Source: an uncultured Methanoregulaceae archaeon
Lineage (GTDB): Archaea > Halobacteriota > Methanomicrobia > Methanomicrobiales > Methanospirillaceae
Reading direction: 5' to 3'
Assembly (NCBI GenBank): GCA_963701095.1
Contig: OY969564.1
Location: 32,001 to 96,000 of the forward strand
Length of the DNA stretch: 64,000 nt
The first letter of the stretch is position 1; the number at the start of each line of letters is the position of its first letter. Position numbers and translations under genes: made by a program. Below the pieces are notes generated by a model. The model worked only from the letters and a program-made list of their open reading frames with translations. It was not told the origin of the DNA and made no database searches. This document shows, in pieces, positions 10,147 through 35,064 of this stretch.

Positions 10147-10194
10147 CAACTCCCCCTTCAGCCCTGAACAAGAGATCAGATATTGAAGGGAATT
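10147..10194 (-). promoter_or_regulatory. Predicted hairpin pairing the leader stop region with the SD of the first aro gene
   Basis: mRNA UAAUUCCCUUCA-AUAUCUGA-UCUCUUGU-UCAGGGC-UGAAGGGGGAGUU: CCCUUCA/UGAAGGG outer stem and UCUGA/UCAGG inner stem. Confidence 0.6.
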
Positions 10195-10264
10195 ACCGAT
10201 ACCAGGAATAAAACCTGAATCTAAAATAGCTAAAAAAACCGAAAACGCTAGAGCAAAGGCTCAT
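10193..10264 (-). CDS. Putative aromatic-rich leader peptide (23 aa, MSLCSSVFGFFSYFRFRFYSWYR)
   Basis: Read manually; 6 Phe, 3 Tyr, 1 Trp; stop 54 nt upstream of the aro operon start. Confidence 0.75.
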   Translation of the reverse strand: MSLCSSVFGFFSYFRFRFYSWYR

Positions 10265-29530: not shown

Positions 29531-30202
29531 TCATCCATTAAAATTATGGTGCCGGTAGCAGTTTTCGATAAACTCCTGTTTCCGGTGCTCGCTTGCGTTT
29601 ACCGGTGGTTTCAAGTATCCGACAGAAGGAGTCTGCTTTGCCGGGCAAAACGGGCAGAGAGCGGCATCAACATCGTTAGCCTTCTCTTTTACCGGGCAGT
29701 AATAGACACCGTCAATACACTCAACGAAATCTCCTCCGGGAAACCGGAGACCTGCCGGATGTCCTGGTTCCTGCCGGACGATCATGCAGAATCCGGCAAG
29801 TAAGAATTTTAAAAACCGGAGCCTGATGTCTCCGGGTCCGACCCGGCACTGTTCGCATACTATTGCCCAGTATCTCTTCTCTCCATCGGTCACCGGCTCG
29901 TTCATCCGCGCAAATGCACCTGATTGGTCCATGAGCCGGATTGCCTGGTATGTCCCAAGTAAGTGACCGGCAATCGCCGTTTCGAGTTCTTTACGGTACC
30001 CTGGTGAAAGATCCCGGATTGATAATCCAAAATTTTGTTCCATTTTCCGGATGTCACGGGGCTGAAATTGCAGCACAATCCGCGCAAGGAATGCACCAAT
30101 TTCGCCCCGGGTATGGAATGTTTTGAGCATGGTGCAGTCTTTCTGGATGGCGGAAACGATCTGTTCCGGCGGGACATCCTCTGCGTTATAAGGGGTTTCC
30201 AT
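29531..30202 (-). CDS. DUF2115 (UPF0305) methanogen protein
   Basis: PGHPAG..FPGG, YYCPVK, ALCPFCPAKQ motifs. Confidence 0.8.
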   Translation of the reverse strand: METPYNAEDVPPEQIVSAIQKDCTMLKTFHTRGEIGAFLARIVLQFQPRDIRKMEQNFGLSIRDLSPGYRKELETAIAGHLLGTYQAIRLMDQSGAFARMNEPVTDGEKRYWAIVCEQCRVGPGDIRLRFLKFLLAGFCMIVRQEPGHPAGLRFPGGDFVECIDGVYYCPVKEKANDVDAALCPFCPAKQTPSVGYLKPPVNASEHRKQEFIENCYRHHNFNG

Positions 30203-30409
30203 TGCTGCACCGATTTTTTTGATCATTGTAATATAAACAGATAACGAAAGGTATCTTTTTTGGTAGAAAATTCTCGACAATACTGTTTTTTGGGTCCGGC
30301 ATAAATGAAGTGCGAATACTCAAAGTAGAGCGTATTTTCGGGTTACTGATAAACGGCTGGTTATTGTTTCTTCCTCACATTCATCTACTTGGAACCCCAA
30401 TAGATCAGG

Positions 30410-30946
30410 ATGGATTCTTTTTTTATCCGATCCGAAATTCCTGAGGATATACCCGCAATTTATGAGGTCAATCTTCAGGCTTTCGGCCAGGATGGTGAAG
30501 CCCGGCTCGTCAGCGCTCTCCGTCATGATGGTGACTATATCCGCGGGCTCTCTCTGGTTGCAGTGCATAAAGACAAAATAATCGGGCATATTCTCTTTGT
30601 CCCGGTATCCATTGAATCGGGCGACATCCACGTACCGGCTGTCGCTCTTGCACCACTTTCGGTATGTTCGGATTACCAGTGTCAGGGTGTTGGATCAAGC
30701 CTTATAAAAGAAGGTCTGCGGGTGTGCCGGCAGCTGGGGCACCGGATTGTGATCGTAGTTGGGCATCCCACATATTACCCCCGGTTCGGGTTCACACCAG
30801 CGTCTATATCGGGGATTAAATCTCCGTTTCCCTGTAAAGATAACGTATTCATGGCATGTCCCCTTGTTCCCGGGGCTCTTGACGGGATCCATGGTACCGT
30901 ACAATATCCCCCGGCGTTCGACACAGAAGGGGCACACGCCGGATAA
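30410..30946 (+). CDS. GNAT N-acetyltransferase (YhbS-like)
   Basis: LSLVA...IIGHILF, LAPLSV..YQ.QGVG, VVGHPTYYPRFGF motifs. Confidence 0.88.
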   Translation: MDSFFIRSEIPEDIPAIYEVNLQAFGQDGEARLVSALRHDGDYIRGLSLVAVHKDKIIGHILFVPVSIESGDIHVPAVALAPLSVCSDYQCQGVGSSLIKEGLRVCRQLGHRIVIVVGHPTYYPRFGFTPASISGIKSPFPCKDNVFMACPLVPGALDGIHGTVQYPPAFDTEGAHAG

Positions 30947-31241
30947 AATCTTGTCTTTTCTCATTCTGCCCCTTTCGGTTTACTATATCTGTAAAAAGTC
31001 CTGACTGGCTTCAAGGCGACCTTCACATCAGGTTTATGAACGGACCGGGATATCAACGAGTCTTTGTTTTTCCAAAACTCCACTTTTTCATGCGACCCTT
31101 TTTTCCTCAGAATCATACCACATTCAGAAAGGATCGCATACCCTCCCTTTTTCCTTTATTTGTGATTTTGATATTGCTGATAAACATGGCACCATTCTGG
31201 TGCAGGAAAAATATTTGTCCTTGAGCGATCAAAGTCCATGC

Positions 31242-31334
31242 ATGGCAAAACCAAGCGGTTTTTGTTTGTGCGAAATATCTGATATTCATCTCCCCTATTT
31301 TATTATTCAAATTATTGTAAGTATTCGGGCGTAA
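31242..31334 (+). CDS. Putative Ile-rich leader peptide (30 aa, MAKPSGFCLCEISDIHLPYFIIQIIVSIRA)
   Basis: Read manually; 7 Ile, 2 Leu, 1 Val with an IIQIIVSI cluster; GAAAAATATTTG BRE/TATA-like box about 28 nt upstream. Confidence 0.7.
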   Translation: MAKPSGFCLCEISDIHLPYFIIQIIVSIRA

Positions 31335-31367
31335 TTCAGCGTCCGATTCAACTTCAGGATGTGTGAA
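31335..31367 (+). promoter_or_regulatory. Predicted hairpin directly after the leader stop, covering the cimA SD-like site
   Basis: TTCAGCGTCC (31335-31344) pairs with GGATGTGTGAA (31357-31367) using two G-U pairs and one bulge; ATG at 31372. Confidence 0.55.
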
Positions 31368-31371
31368 AAAT

Positions 31372-32889
31372 ATGGATTTAGATAAAACCTGTTCATTTCC
31401 GAATAATCTGTTCGCAAGGAAATTGCGCTTTTTTGATACCACGCTACGGGACGGGGAACAGACCCCGGGGGTATCGTTGAACCCGGACCAGAAATTGGAG
31501 ATTGCAACCAGATTGGCAGCGGTAGGTGTCGATGTCATTGAGGCCGGCTCAGCGGCGGCATCAGCCGGGGAACAGGATGCGATCCGGCTCATCTCCGGTG
31601 CGGGGCTCCCGGTAGAAACGTGCACATTTGTCCGGGCAGTCCGATCCGATATCGATTATGCCGCTGACAACGGTGCCGATTCAGTCCATTTGGTAATACC
31701 GGTTAGCGACCTTCACATCGAAAAGAAGATGCGAAAAACCCGCGATCAGGTTGCAGAGATGGCCTGGAACTCGGTCGAGTACGCAAAAAGCCGGGGACTT
31801 ATTGTAGAACTTTCGGGAGAAGATGCTTCCCGGGCGGACCAGCAGTTCCTGTCCGCCGTTTTTTCCGGGGGAGTAGAGCGCGGTGCCGACCGGCTTTGTT
31901 TCTGTGACACGGTGGGTCTCCTGACGCCAGAGAAGATTGCGGAAATTATCCCGCCGCTTGCCGGCATCGCTCCGCTTTCGATCCACTGCCACGATGACCT
32001 CGGTTTTGCGCTTGCAAACACCGTTGCTGCGTTAAAATCTGGTGCAGGTTGTGCCCACTCAACAGTGAACGGTCTTGGCGAACGTGCCGGCAATACACCC
32101 TTCGAGGAACTCGTGCTCTCTCTTGAGGTACTCTACGGATACCAGACCGGGATAAAAAAAGAAGAGATATATGCCCTTTCCACGCTGGTATCCCGGCTAA
32201 CCGGTGTCCCGCTACCGGTGAATAAAGCCGTTGTGGGTGAGATGGCGTTTACCCACGAAAGCGGTATCCACGCGCACGGCGTGATCCGGGAACCGGCTAC
32301 CTATGAGTCAATACGGCCGGAACAGGTGGGAAGGCGGCGCCGGATCGTTCTTGGGAAACATTCTGGTTCGGCCTCGGTTGAAGCTGCACTGCACGAGATG
32401 AAGTACGCGCCAAACGATCAGCAGCTTAGAGCCATTGTTTCCCGGATAAAAGATTTGGGCGATTCGGGAAAACGTGTCAGCGATGCCGATCTCATGGCGG
32501 TTGCCGATTCAGTCCTTGCCATGGAATGCAGGCCCACCATCAAGCTGCGGCAGTTTACTGTCGTTTCCGGGAGTAACATGATACCCACGGCATCGGTCAC
32601 GCTCGAAGTAAAAGGAAAAGAGATGACCGGTGCTGCAACAGGAGACGGGCCCGTCGATGCTGCGATGCAGGTACTGGCGCAATCGGTCGCCGATGTAGGG
32701 AACATACGACTCGAAGAATATCATGTTGACGCGATCAGCGGTGGAACGGATGCATTGGTTGAAGTGACTGTAATGTTAAGTAAAGACGGGAAGATAATTA
32801 CTTCACGGGGCGCGCGCACGGATATAATCATGGCGAGCGTTGAGGCGATGATCGCCGGAATGAATAGACTACTTGAGGAACGAACATGA
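31372..32889 (+). CDS. cimA: (R)-citramalate synthase (LeuA/CimA family)
   Basis: [27 protein letters not shown], regulatory domain GDGPVDA; CimA rather than LeuA is inferred from linkage to ilvBN and the Ile-rich leader. Confidence 0.75.
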
Positions 32890-34564
32890 AAACCGGGGCA
32901 AAACTCCTTGTTGAATCACTGCAGCGTGAGGGTACCGATACATTGTTTGGTTACCCTGGCGGTTCAGTGTTGCCGATCTATGATGAACTCTACGATTCAC
33001 CATTGCGGCATATCCTGGTACGGCACGAACAGGCAGCAGCGCATGCCGCAGACGGCTATGCACGCGCGAGCGGCCGGGTAGGTGTATGTCTTGCCACCTC
33101 GGGTCCTGGAGCCTGTAACCTTGTCACCGGGATAGCAACTGCGTATATGGACTCGGTCCCTGTTGTGGCCATTACCGGCCAAGTGCCCACAACGATGCTC
33201 GGAAACGATGCGTTCCAGGAATCGGATATCCAGGGCATCACGATGCCTATCACCAAACATAATTACCTGGTAAAGGACACTTCGGATATTCCCCGCGTGG
33301 TAAAAGAGGCATTTTATATCGCCGGTACCGGTCGTCCGGGTCCGGTACTTATCGATCTGCCAAAGGATGTCAATACCCGGTCGGTCAAGGAACCGGTCGT
33401 CCCGGATAAAGTGATTCTCCGTGGCTACAACCCGACCTATAAAGGACATAAACGCCAGATCGATAAAGCGATTGAACTTATCATGGCAGCGGAACGCCCG
33501 CTCATTTACGCCGGTGGCGGTGTTATTATTTCCAACGCATCCCCGCAGTTAATAGCATTTGTGTCCGGCCACGGTATTCCGGTCACGACCACCCTGATGG
33601 GTATCGGCTGTATCCCCGGCGATCACCCGCTCAACCTTGGCATGCTGGGTATGCATGGCACAGAATATGCAAATTTCGCGGTCACCGAATGCGATCTTCT
33701 CATTGCGATCGGTGCGCGATTCGATGACCGTGTTACCGGAAAGATTGAAACTTTCGCACCTCATGCAAAAGTGATCCATATCGATATCGACCCTGCAGAA
33801 ATAGGAAAGAACAAACATGTGGATGTACCGATTGTGGGCGACATTAAAGCAGTGCTTACAGATATGATGGCCGGTCTTGCAAAAAAGAATGCCTGTGAGG
33901 CCTGGCAGAAAAAGATAAAGCACTGGCGACAGCACCATCCTCTCCGGTTTGGTAAAGAGAACGGGTGCCTGCACCCCCAATTCATTCTCCAGCAGATGAA
34001 TGAATTGTTACAAGGGGATGCAGTCATTGTCTCTGAGGTTGGCCAGAACCAGATGTGGACCGCCCAGTACTTCTGTTTCCGTTATCCCCGCACCTGGATC
34101 ACCTCTGGCGGGCTTGGCACGATGGGTTATGGATTTCCTGCGGCGATAGGGGCGCACTTTGCCAGGCCCGATCTCCCGGTCTTTGATGTTGCCGGCGACG
34201 GTAGTATCCAGATGAATATCCAGGAAATGGGGACTGTGGCCCAGTATAAGATCCCGGTAAAGATTGCCATTCTTAATAATATGTACCTGGGCATGGTGCG
34301 CCAGTGGCAGGAGCTTTCTACGACCGGCGCTATTCCTATACCGAGCTTCCGCCGGTGGAGTTCACAAAGATTGCACAGGCATATGGTATTGAAGGGATAA
34401 AAGTGGAGTCCTGCGACGAGGTCATGCCGGCATTACAGGCAGCAGTTGATAATGACGGGCCGTTTGTCCTGGACTTCAGGATTGAACGGGAGGAAAATGT
34501 GTTTCCCATGGTACCGGCCGGTGCAGCCATTAACGAGATGATCGGGGGGCATCCGCGATCATGA
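32886..34564 (+). CDS. ilvB: Acetolactate synthase large subunit (frameshift near 34317)
   Basis: [44 protein letters not shown]; one added T restores ELFYDRRYS. Confidence 0.93.
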
Positions 34565-35064
34565 AAGCACATACATTGTCCGTACTTGTGGAAAATAAGG
34601 CCGGGGTACTATCCCGGGTTACCGGTCTCTTCTCCCGGCGCGGTTTTAACATCGAGAGCCTTGCTGTGGGAACCTGCGAGGAACCGGACATGAGCCGGAT
34701 CACGATCGTGGTGATCGGTGATGATGCCCAGGTTGAGCAGGTAATGAAACAACTCAACAAGCTTATCGATGTGATTAAGGTCTCGGATCTTACCGACGGC
34801 GAACGGGTTGAGCGAGAGCTTGCGCTTTTCAAGGTGTCAGCCGAACAAGGCTCAACCCGTGCCGAGATTATGCAGATTGCAACCATCTTCCGGGCCCAGA
34901 TAGTAGATGTGGGTGCAAGGTCGGTAATCCTCCAGATAGCTGGTGATACCGGAAAGATCGAAGCAATGGAGAAACTTCTGCGCCAGTTTGGGATCAAGGA
35001 GCTGATTCGGACAGGTAAGATAGGGATTTTGCGCGGCACAAAGACAGTTACTAGCAGCAAATAA
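34561..35064 (+). CDS. ilvN: Acetolactate synthase regulatory subunit
   Basis: LVENKAGVLSRV.GLFSRRGFNIESL, KQLNKLIDV motifs. Confidence 0.95.
   Translation: MKAHTLSVLVENKAGVLSRVTGLFSRRGFNIESLAVGTCEEPDMSRITIVVIGDDAQVEQVMKQLNKLIDVIKVSDLTDGERVERELALFKVSAEQGSTRAEIMQIATIFRAQIVDVGARSVILQIAGDTGKIEAMEKLLRQFGIKELIRTGKIGILRGTKTVTSSK

What the first reader, a model, noticed from the sequence alone, without database searches (positions are those of the whole stretch)
31242..31334. Ile-rich leader peptide upstream of the cimA-ilvB-ilvN operon
Seen: a 30-codon ORF MAKPSGFCLCEISDIHLPYFIIQIIVSIRA with 7 Ile, 2 Leu and 1 Val, clustered as IIQIIVSI just before the stop, which lies 37 nt before the cimA ATG. 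A GAAAAATATTTG box about 28 nt upstream suggests the uORF starts at or near the transcription start (leaderless). Established: methanogens make Ile through citramalate synthase and acetohydroxyacid synthase, and bacterial ilv/thr leaders are rich in Ile, Leu and Val. Inference: Ile-responsive leader control, which also supports calling the gene CimA rather than LeuA. Caveats: AT-rich DNA favours ATT codons, and an out-of-frame ATG at 31238 gives MHGKTKRFLFVRNI.
Basis: partly seen in the sequence, partly recalled or inferred. Interest (0 to 1): 0.88.

Follow-up and report, generated by a model that had tools for sequence, protein, structure and literature searches.

The report
Swapped isoleucine sensor before methanogen cimA
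In a few Methanoregula lineages the ribosome-slip signal that normally opens the first isoleucine-pathway gene has been replaced by a small isoleucine-rich upstream gene inside a two-way RNA fold, probably a second way for ribosomes to gauge isoleucine, of a kind described in bacteria.

Summary
The 30-codon ORF is real. Six distinct leaders (4 genomes, 2 more from metagenomes) keep the ATG, the stop, the frame and 4-6 Ile codons in the last 12, while the 5' half drifts to 38-54% identity. The telling result is what it replaced. Of 98 genus genomes, 92 have a short out-of-frame ORF with TTT-ATY one base out of step with cimA (candidate Ile-gated +1 frameshift; leuA has YTT-CTY instead). Four have this cassette, none has both, 2 are unreadable. 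The cassette (promoter, uORF, hairpin, Shine-Dalgarno, new N-terminus) sits on at least three cimA backgrounds, so it probably moved by recombination. Best model: ribosomes crossing the last codons open hairpin H1, freeing its 3' arm to hide the cimA Shine-Dalgarno; stalling on the Ile run keeps it open. This is folding prediction only: no covariation, no mapped start, non-consensus TATA box. This scan reported the frameshift and other archaeal leader peptides before on other DNA, but a sequence look-up found no note like this cassette. I found no paper on archaeal leader-peptide attenuation of ilv genes.

The parts
31198..31219 (+). Promoter-like element: TGGTGCAGG, a purine run, then a T-rich box (TATTTGTC) where relatives have their TATA box; TATA non-consensus
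   Evidence: Conserved in 6 of 6 leaders, 34-35 nt before the uORF ATG; in frameshift-type relatives such as L013 and L020 the same element lies 35 nt before the ATGG that follows their TATA box. Function inferred.
31242..31334 (+). Leader ORF, 30 codons (27 in the other subtype), possibly leaderless
   Evidence: ATG and TAA invariant in 6 of 6, only internal indel is 9 nt
31302..31325 (+). Ile/Val sensing run, codons 21-28 (IIQIIVSI)
   Evidence: Three Ile codons and one Val codon invariant, other positions turn over
31325..31332 (+). Arm A (last codons and first stop base), 5' strand of hairpin H1
   Evidence: 8 pairs, 100% paired, 7 never vary
31339..31346 (+). Arm B, pairs either with arm A (H1, about -12 kcal/mol) or with the Shine-Dalgarno region (H2, about -7.5)
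31354..31363 (+). Arm C with the Shine-Dalgarno-like AGGATGTG of cimA
   Evidence: Invariant in 6 of 6, with an in-frame ATG 6-8 nt downstream in 6 of 6
31372..31407 (+). New in-frame start and 12-codon N-terminal extension brought by the cassette
   Evidence: Absent from frameshift-type relatives
31413..31434 (+). Small stem and T6 run inside early cimA; candidate stop point for untranslated transcripts
   Evidence: 148 of 157 Phe codons at these two positions are TTT against 202 of 416 later in the same genes. Role is inference.
31372..32889 (+). cimA-like gene (HMGL-like, HCS_D2 and LeuA allosteric domains)
32886..34564 (+). ilvB, acetolactate synthase large subunit, read here in two frames (break near 34320)
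34561..35064 (+). ilvN, acetolactate synthase small subunit

Best explanation
The ORF is a cis-acting leader that reports charged tRNA-Ile (perhaps also tRNA-Val) to the cimA-ilvB-ilvN operon; the peptide itself does not matter. With Ile plentiful, ribosomes run through the Ile tract and repeatedly unwind hairpin H1, which overlaps the last codons. Freed arm B pairs with the cimA Shine-Dalgarno (H2) and cimA initiation drops; an untranslated transcript may then be ended at the U run 57 nt into cimA, which would also lower ilvBN. With Ile scarce, ribosomes wait on the upstream Ile run, H1 stays closed and the Shine-Dalgarno is free. The whole unit came in as a cassette of roughly 250-320 nt that displaced an older candidate Ile sensor, a +1 frameshift at TTT-ATY, and spread between Methanoregula lineages by recombination. 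Shown: the ORF, its conservation, the replacement and its mutual exclusivity, non-monophyly. Predicted: the two helices. Inferred: translation, Ile response, direction of control, termination relay.
For: Mutual exclusivity: 92 of 98 genus genomes have the shift site, 4 the cassette, none both, 2 unreadable; 0 of 6 cassettes keep a site opening into cimA. Amino-acid logic of the displaced site: TTT-ATY in 86 of 88 sampled cimA loci, YTT-CTY in 20 of 20 leuA loci; cross-controls 0 of 20 and 3 of 88. All 4 cassette genomes keep the Leu site on leuA. Clean swap: L034 matches frameshift-type L036 and L046 on both flanks and differs only across the cassette. Coding pattern: the only indel inside the ORF is 9 nt, while indels outside it are 1, 2 and 23-25 nt; random substitution at the observed level keeps the frame open with 4 or more Ile in only 3.5-5% of 20000 trials. 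H1 to H2 switch predicted in 6 of 6 leaders when a ribosome covers arm A. The cost of opening the cimA start is lower with the ribosome on the upstream Ile run than on the last V-x-I-R codons in 6 of 6 leaders for a short transcript, for example 5.4-6.3 against 10.9-12.1 kcal/mol in L032. The one variable base of arm B (G or A) fits both helices.
Against: Only six related leaders in two subtypes. No compensatory change in H1 or H2. H2 alone is not unusual: 29 of 200 shuffles fold as well; 212 and 730 of 5000 in two other controls. With a longer transcript the energy contrast vanishes in L033 and L034. Ribosome-free mRNA is about as open as the stalled state in most leaders (clearly more closed only in L001), and H1 is stronger than H2, so repression needs constant ribosome traffic. 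The last invariant Ile codon lies in the predicted 'off' zone. The TATA position is non-consensus. The first analysis, with the downstream ATG in L033 and L034, gave the opposite trend there; I then used the in-frame ATG 7 nt after the Shine-Dalgarno, a choice made after seeing the result.
Confidence: 0.55

Rival explanations
1. The uORF senses Ile but acts mainly on transcription: a stalled ribosome shields the U-rich leader RNA, or keeps coupling, so that FttA/aCPSF1 does not end the transcript.
For: FttA binds U-rich RNA, and mutual exclusion with a coupled ribosome is hypothesised in PMC11616081 (passages). The Ile run is U-rich. A T run of 5 or more occurs in early cimA in 86 of 94 loci.
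Against: No terminator-like site on the + strand between the stop and cimA. Runs of 4 or more T inside the uORF are missing in L033 and L034 (sequences). The cimA U run is also present in frameshift-type genes, and 5' ends of genes are often AT-rich (recalled). It does not explain why arm B and the Shine-Dalgarno are invariant.
Confidence: 0.17
2. Nascent-peptide arrest: the invariant I-R-A-stop end stalls the ribosome in the presence of free Ile, as TnaC does with Trp (recalled), and the parked ribosome represses cimA.
For: The last three codons and the stop are invariant in 6 of 6; a ribosome on these codons gives the most closed start region, which would solve the dwell-time problem of the main model.
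Against: Those bases are also arm A, so RNA pairing explains their invariance. Substitutions upstream fall evenly on all three codon positions, and the peptide is not conserved.
Confidence: 0.08
3. The ORF is incidental: the cassette is a promoter plus a structured or AU-rich 5' leader (constitutive, or bound by a protein), and it was selected because it frees cimA from the frameshift.
For: An open frame alone survives the observed divergence in 27-29% of trials. ATT codons are favoured by AT-rich DNA. No covariation. No expression data.
Against: Invariant ATG and TAA, a triplet indel inside and non-triplet indels outside, Ile retained with turnover, 1 of 457 gene-proximal ORFs, and Ile is the amino acid sensed by the displaced site.
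Confidence: 0.13
4. The uORF encodes a small protein that acts in trans or sits in the membrane.
For: Hydrophobic C-terminal half.
Against: No third-position bias in substitutions (for example 10/10/12); no NCBIfam family; hydrophobic stretch only about 10 residues.
Confidence: 0.04
5. The uORF feeds cimA by a +1 frameshift in its Ile run, like the ancestral site.
For: The window's uORF contains TTT-ATT, and cimA is in its +1 frame in L001, L032 and L063.
Against: The frame offset is 1, 1, 1, 0, 0, 2 in the six leaders. A shift at TTT-ATT meets a stop at 31318-31320. All six have their own Shine-Dalgarno and in-frame ATG.
Confidence: 0.03

Closest known systems
Mycobacterial leaderless polycysteine sORF attenuators (Ms5788A; bioRxiv 10.1101/834739, passages seen)
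   Same: Probable leaderless short ORF, cognate codons at its 3' end, control of the downstream Shine-Dalgarno, no classical terminator.
   Different: There the codon tract itself pairs with the Shine-Dalgarno and the ribosome-free state is 'off'. Here the conserved pairing runs through a separate arm B after the stop, and the free state is predicted mostly open. Archaeal; Ile rather than Cys.
Bacterial leader-peptide transcription attenuators of ilv operons (enterobacterial ilvL/ivbL, recalled; Corynebacterium ilvBNC, PMC11857589, search listing only)
   Same: Ile/Val-rich leader before cognate genes; mutually exclusive helices set by ribosome position.
   Different: No hairpin-plus-U-run terminator between leader and gene; output predicted at translation initiation; the stop codon lies in the loop of the anti-repressor helix.
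Actinobacterial LEU element before leuA (PMC1262725, passages)
   Same: Cognate-codon uORF and Shine-Dalgarno sequestration before a gene of the same enzyme family.
   Different: Leu run pairs with the Shine-Dalgarno at the base of a pseudoknot; that paper doubts a classical leader-peptide mechanism. No pseudoknot tested here.
Candidate +1 frameshift leaders of archaeal cimA/leuA
   Same: Same gene, same amino acid read by the ribosome; this is the state of 92 of 98 genus genomes.
   Different: The window's cimA has lost the site and has its own in-frame start.
Other candidate archaeal leader-peptide attenuators noted by this scan (ilvB, ileS, ilvE leaders; aro leader at 10193-10264 of this window)
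   Same: Cognate-codon uORF with alternative helices in an archaeon.
   Different: No sequence likeness to the aro leader (blastn of own genome); its hairpin follows the stop and holds the Shine-Dalgarno directly. The others are AI notes that I did not check.

Membership tests
Leader-peptide transcription attenuator (ilvL/thrL type) | Short upstream ORF rich in codons of the pathway's product | tested here: met
Leader-peptide transcription attenuator (ilvL/thrL type) | Mutually exclusive helices set by ribosome position | tested here: inconclusive
   Predicted in 6 of 6; no covariation; H2 within chance range
Leader-peptide transcription attenuator (ilvL/thrL type) | Intrinsic terminator (hairpin and U run) between leader and first gene | tested here: not met
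   the only + strand terminator-like site in 30940-31450 lies inside cimA
Leaderless sORF translational attenuator (mycobacterial polyCys type) | uORF starts at the transcription start | not testable with these tools
   Position fits; no start mapping available
Leaderless sORF translational attenuator (mycobacterial polyCys type) | Cognate codon tract at the 3' end of the sORF | tested here: met
   4-6 Ile in the last 12 codons in 6 of 6
Leaderless sORF translational attenuator (mycobacterial polyCys type) | Unoccupied tract pairs with and hides the Shine-Dalgarno | tested here: inconclusive
   Seen in the window's fold (z -3.1); that outer helix is 80% paired across leaders with no covariation above shuffles; free mRNA clearly more closed only in L001
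Any ribosome-mediated attenuator | Expression responds to cognate amino acid and needs uORF translation | not testable with these tools
   Needs reporters or Ribo-seq
Archaeal cimA/leuA +1 frameshift leader (candidate class) | TTT-ATY in the -1 frame opening into the gene | tested here: not met
   0 of 6 cassette leaders
CimA (citramalate synthase) rather than LeuA | Lacks the N-x-P-D-T pocket motif of LeuA; a separate LeuA paralog exists | tested here: met
   3rmj and 3eeg have NIPDT where the window protein has CFCDT; the paralog has NIPDT. That this motif separates the two activities is recalled.
CimA (citramalate synthase) rather than LeuA | Curated family assignment to CimA | tested here: inconclusive
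   NCBIfam passes only NF002085 (named 2-isopropylmalate synthase) and TIGR02090 (isopropylmalate/citramalate/homocitrate); both CimA models are below cut-off. RefSeq calls the M. mazei orthologue MM_0671 2-isopropylmalate synthase.
CimA (citramalate synthase) rather than LeuA | Condenses pyruvate with acetyl-CoA | not testable with these tools
   Enzyme assay needed
Known Rfam family | Match at gathering score | tested here: not met
   Five matches with E 1.2-2.6, all far below gathering

The most novel reading that the evidence does not exclude
Methanogens have two interchangeable ribosome-based gauges of isoleucine at one gene: an ancestral amino-acid-gated +1 frameshift and a leader-peptide switch that travels between lineages as a portable regulatory cassette and overwrites it. 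This would show leader-peptide attenuation and regulatory +1 recoding in archaea in a single natural swap experiment.
Probability: 0.5. Interest if true: 0.92.

Novelty: new variant of a known kind. Interest (0 to 1): 0.8.

Why it matters
Archaeal amino-acid pathways are described mainly as controlled by transcription factors (TrpY and Tar, PMC6737238, passages), and a 2021 review lists a single archaeal case of -1 frameshifting (PMC8211752, first part of section 7). An Ile-sensing leader that replaces an Ile-coded frameshift site at the same gene gives each element independent support: two unrelated designs point to the same amino acid. Both leaders are under 320 nt and can be compared side by side on one reporter in a genetically tractable methanogen. 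It also suggests that regulatory leaders are exchanged by recombination, and it explains mis-annotated cimA starts (the M. mazei orthologue is annotated with an ATC start).

Tried and rejected
Donor of the cassette not found: the exact hairpin pattern gave 14 hits in one genome per species, 4 in Methanoregula cimA leaders (one a contig-end copy equal to L063) and 10 without an Ile-rich ORF; none in viral contigs. DNA search of 228 family genomes found long matches only in G000, G116, G015 and G118. The covariance model matched 2 of 141 order genomes (G000, G116) and 1 of 150 phylum genomes (G000); these are samples, not proof of absence. No second copy in the own genome. TGGTGCAG is not a general promoter mark here: 44 non-coding copies, 5 with a TATA-like box. 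The alignment with the aro leader had that leader on the wrong strand and is not used. Rfam blank. The careful protein tree did not finish; the DNA trees did. Literature searches that gave no report of an archaeal ilv/cimA leader-peptide attenuator or of this cassette: (open-licence PMC and bioRxiv only; most subscription papers are not searched). In PMC11456600 three supplementary files were not searched and one was cut; its uORF tables could bear on whether the frameshift-type leader is translated in M. mazei. bioRxiv supplements were closed.

Full report
Observation. Window 31242-31334 encodes MAKPSGFCLCEISDIHLPYFIIQIIVSIRA followed by TAA, 37 nt before the ATG at 31372. Downstream lie a LeuA/CimA-family gene, ilvB and ilvN. 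Named records that carry the same leader are Methanoregula. With a criterion set after seeing the ORF (6 or more Ile, 5 or more in 8 codons) it is the only hit among 457 intergenic 20-40-codon ATG ORFs that end within 80 nt of a crudely called gene; 11 of 4021 genome-wide, 8 of 1296 GC-matched ORFs and 8 of 5000 shuffles pass.

Conservation. The ORF occurs in G000, G116, G118 and G015 and, from a metagenome scan whose pattern was the CimA N-terminus and not the leader (5 hits), in two further distinct leaders, L061 and L063. L062 and L065 repeat G015 and G116, and L064 is cut before the ORF. All six distinct leaders keep the ATG 34-35 nt after TGGTGCAGG, the ending I-R-A-TAA and 4-6 Ile in the last 12 codons; the out-of-frame ATG at -4 is present in 3 of 6. 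Between the two subtypes the 5' half of the ORF is only 38-54% identical, while the stretch from the last Ile codon to the Shine-Dalgarno is 83-100% identical. The one indel inside the ORF is 9 nt; those outside are 1, 2 and 23-25 nt. Substitutions fall evenly on the three codon positions, so the peptide sequence is not what is kept. Random substitution at that level leaves the frame open in 27-29% of trials, and open with 4 or more Ile in 3.5-5%. This is modest evidence from six related sequences.

What the leader replaced. Of 108 genus genomes, 98 gave a cimA match, and I read the upstream DNA of all 98: 92 have a short ORF carrying TTT-ATY one base out of step with cimA and open into it, 4 have the cassette, none has both, and 2 are unreadable (one with N bases, one at a contig start). 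In a wider set of 88 non-cassette loci (38 of the genus, 50 from other genera of the order, 40 of them hand-picked from the lists), 86 have the site, each with an ATG or GTG upstream in that frame; 16 have no ATG, GTG or TTG in the gene's frame after the last stop; one has TTT-CTT instead. The LeuA-like paralog has YTT-CTY at the same place in 20 of 20 hand-picked loci; the cross-controls give 0 of 20 and 3 of 88. In other orders of the phylum 16 of 20 hand-picked best hits have [T/A]TT-ATY and 4 have an ordinary start. RefSeq annotates the M. mazei orthologue MM_0671 with an ATC start (supplement row of PMC11456600). This is best read as an amino-acid-gated +1 frameshift, like RF2 or antizyme control (recalled); it is not shown by experiment. 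I saw it before the look-up; the scan had reported it on another genome (e1-6492299), and PMC8305020 speculates on slippage for Haloferax leuA2 (passages and supplement). All four cassette genomes keep the Leu site on leuA, so the change is specific to cimA.

A mobile cassette. L034 matches the frameshift-type L036 and L046 through the upstream DUF2115-like gene and again from the FASKLRFF region of cimA, and differs only over about 320 nt that replace about 85 nt of promoter and shift leader. Cassette-bearing cimA genes fall at three places inside one well-supported subclade, and a tree that holds the six together is rejected (23 rows, first 690 nt, p-AU 1e-10; I named the group before any tree but chose the rows after the quick tree). 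The unlinked leuA tree also rejects one clade for the four genomes (16 rows, L189 left out, p-AU 3e-6). Because every sampled outgroup in the order has a shift-type site, the cassette is derived. Spread by recombination is the simplest reading; one gain followed by reversions through recombination is not excluded. No donor was found.

Mechanism. The last codons form arm A of an 8-pair hairpin H1 with the stop in its loop. Its 3' arm B can instead form an 8-pair helix H2 with the region holding AGGATGTG, which lies 6-8 nt before an in-frame cimA ATG in 6 of 6 leaders. With a ribosome footprint of recalled size as a folding constraint, H1 dominates while the A site is on the upstream Ile run and H2 takes over on the last codons in 6 of 6 leaders. 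The energy needed to open the cimA start follows this in 6 of 6 for a transcript ending 15 nt into cimA, and in 4 of 6 at 40 nt. The direction is what feedback needs. The weaknesses are real: no compensatory pairs; H2 is matched by 4-15% of shuffles; ribosome-free RNA is about as open as the stalled state in most leaders, so repression must come from traffic; the last Ile codon lies in the 'off' zone, using the more downstream ATG, gave the opposite trend for L033 and L034. A stem and T6 run 41-62 nt into cimA, with 148 of 157 Phe codons there being TTT against 202 of 416 later (kin are not independent, and two loci were selected on this run), could end untranslated transcripts through FttA (PMC11616081, passages) and so extend control to ilvBN. 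That step is inference.

Promoter. The element before the uORF aligns by distance with the promoters of frameshift-type relatives, which would put the start at the uORF ATG, and no Shine-Dalgarno precedes that ATG. But the TATA position reads TATTTGTC or TTTTTGTS, not the recalled consensus. The leaderless start is unverified.

Gene identity. Solved LeuA enzymes have NIPDT where the window protein has CFCDT; the paralog at about 2.316 Mb has NIPDT, and a third, shorter paralog lacks the regulatory domain. Ile on this gene and Leu on the paralog fits CimA and LeuA. Curated families do not decide it. Deleting cimA causes Ile auxotrophy in Methanothermobacter marburgensis (PMC12131731, passages).

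Comparison and novelty. It works like a leader-peptide attenuator, closest to the mycobacterial leaderless polycysteine sORFs, but it is not a member of the terminator-based class and no longer of the frameshift class. Eight literature searches showed no archaeal ilv or cimA leader-peptide attenuator, within an open-licence library. I recall a Met-Trp minigene on M. thermautotrophicus trpY mRNA; it did not appear in the passages. The scan has noted other archaeal leader peptides but nothing alike by sequence; one report touching this stretch is withheld. Verdict: a real, selected Ile-rich leader (about 0.8 that it senses Ile by translation, 0.55 for the H1/H2 route), new variant of a known kind, notable because it displaced another Ile-coded ribosomal device at the same gene.

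Noticed in passing
L175 (G000:C1 near 2316278-2316400, minus strand); L106-L125; L176-L188: The LeuA-like paralog starts with a short ORF about 24 nt after a TATA box, ending in YTT-CTY (Leu) one base out of step with the gene; kept in this genome.
   Followed up: yes
L098 (G032): This cimA orthologue has TTT-CTT (Leu) in place of TTT-ATT; here and in G027 and G037 cimA and leuA lie back to back.
   Followed up: no
L133, L137-L141: In family f7 the site reads ATT-ATT, where the P-site tRNA could hardly re-pair after a +1 step; the shift may not need re-pairing.
   Followed up: partly
L003-L030, L066-L105, L106-L125: A Shine-Dalgarno-like stretch (GAGTGA, GAGGGA, GGGGGA) lies about 3 nt before the shift codon, the geometry of the RF2 stimulator (recalled); duplex energies with the anti-SD ranged from -4.4 to -10.7 kcal/mol.
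   Followed up: partly
window 32886-34564: ilvB is split by a one-base loss in a T run near 34318-34320; probably a sequencing error in a single-contig genome scored 86% complete. Relatives not checked.
   Followed up: partly
window 10193-10264, minus strand: Phe/Tyr/Trp-rich ORF before the aromatic operon, followed by a hairpin that holds the Shine-Dalgarno; no sequence likeness to the Ile cassette.
   Followed up: partly
window 31165-31178; L032, L061, L063: A TTTGTG..TTTGATAT motif upstream of the cassette promoter is spaced 9-10 nt differently between subtypes, about one helical turn; possible activator site.
   Followed up: no
L033, L034: A 24-nt in-frame duplication gives two candidate cimA starts, each with its own Shine-Dalgarno-like sequence.
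   Followed up: partly
L146 (G116:C50): G116 holds a second, contig-end copy of the leader identical to L063; probably a second strain in the bin.
   Followed up: partly
window 29531-30946: A DUF2115 gene usually lies directly upstream of cimA on the other strand; here a GNAT acetyltransferase gene sits between them.
   Followed up: no
L070, L100: These cimA genes have about 15 extra codons between the shift site and the conserved core, still open in the +1 frame.
   Followed up: no
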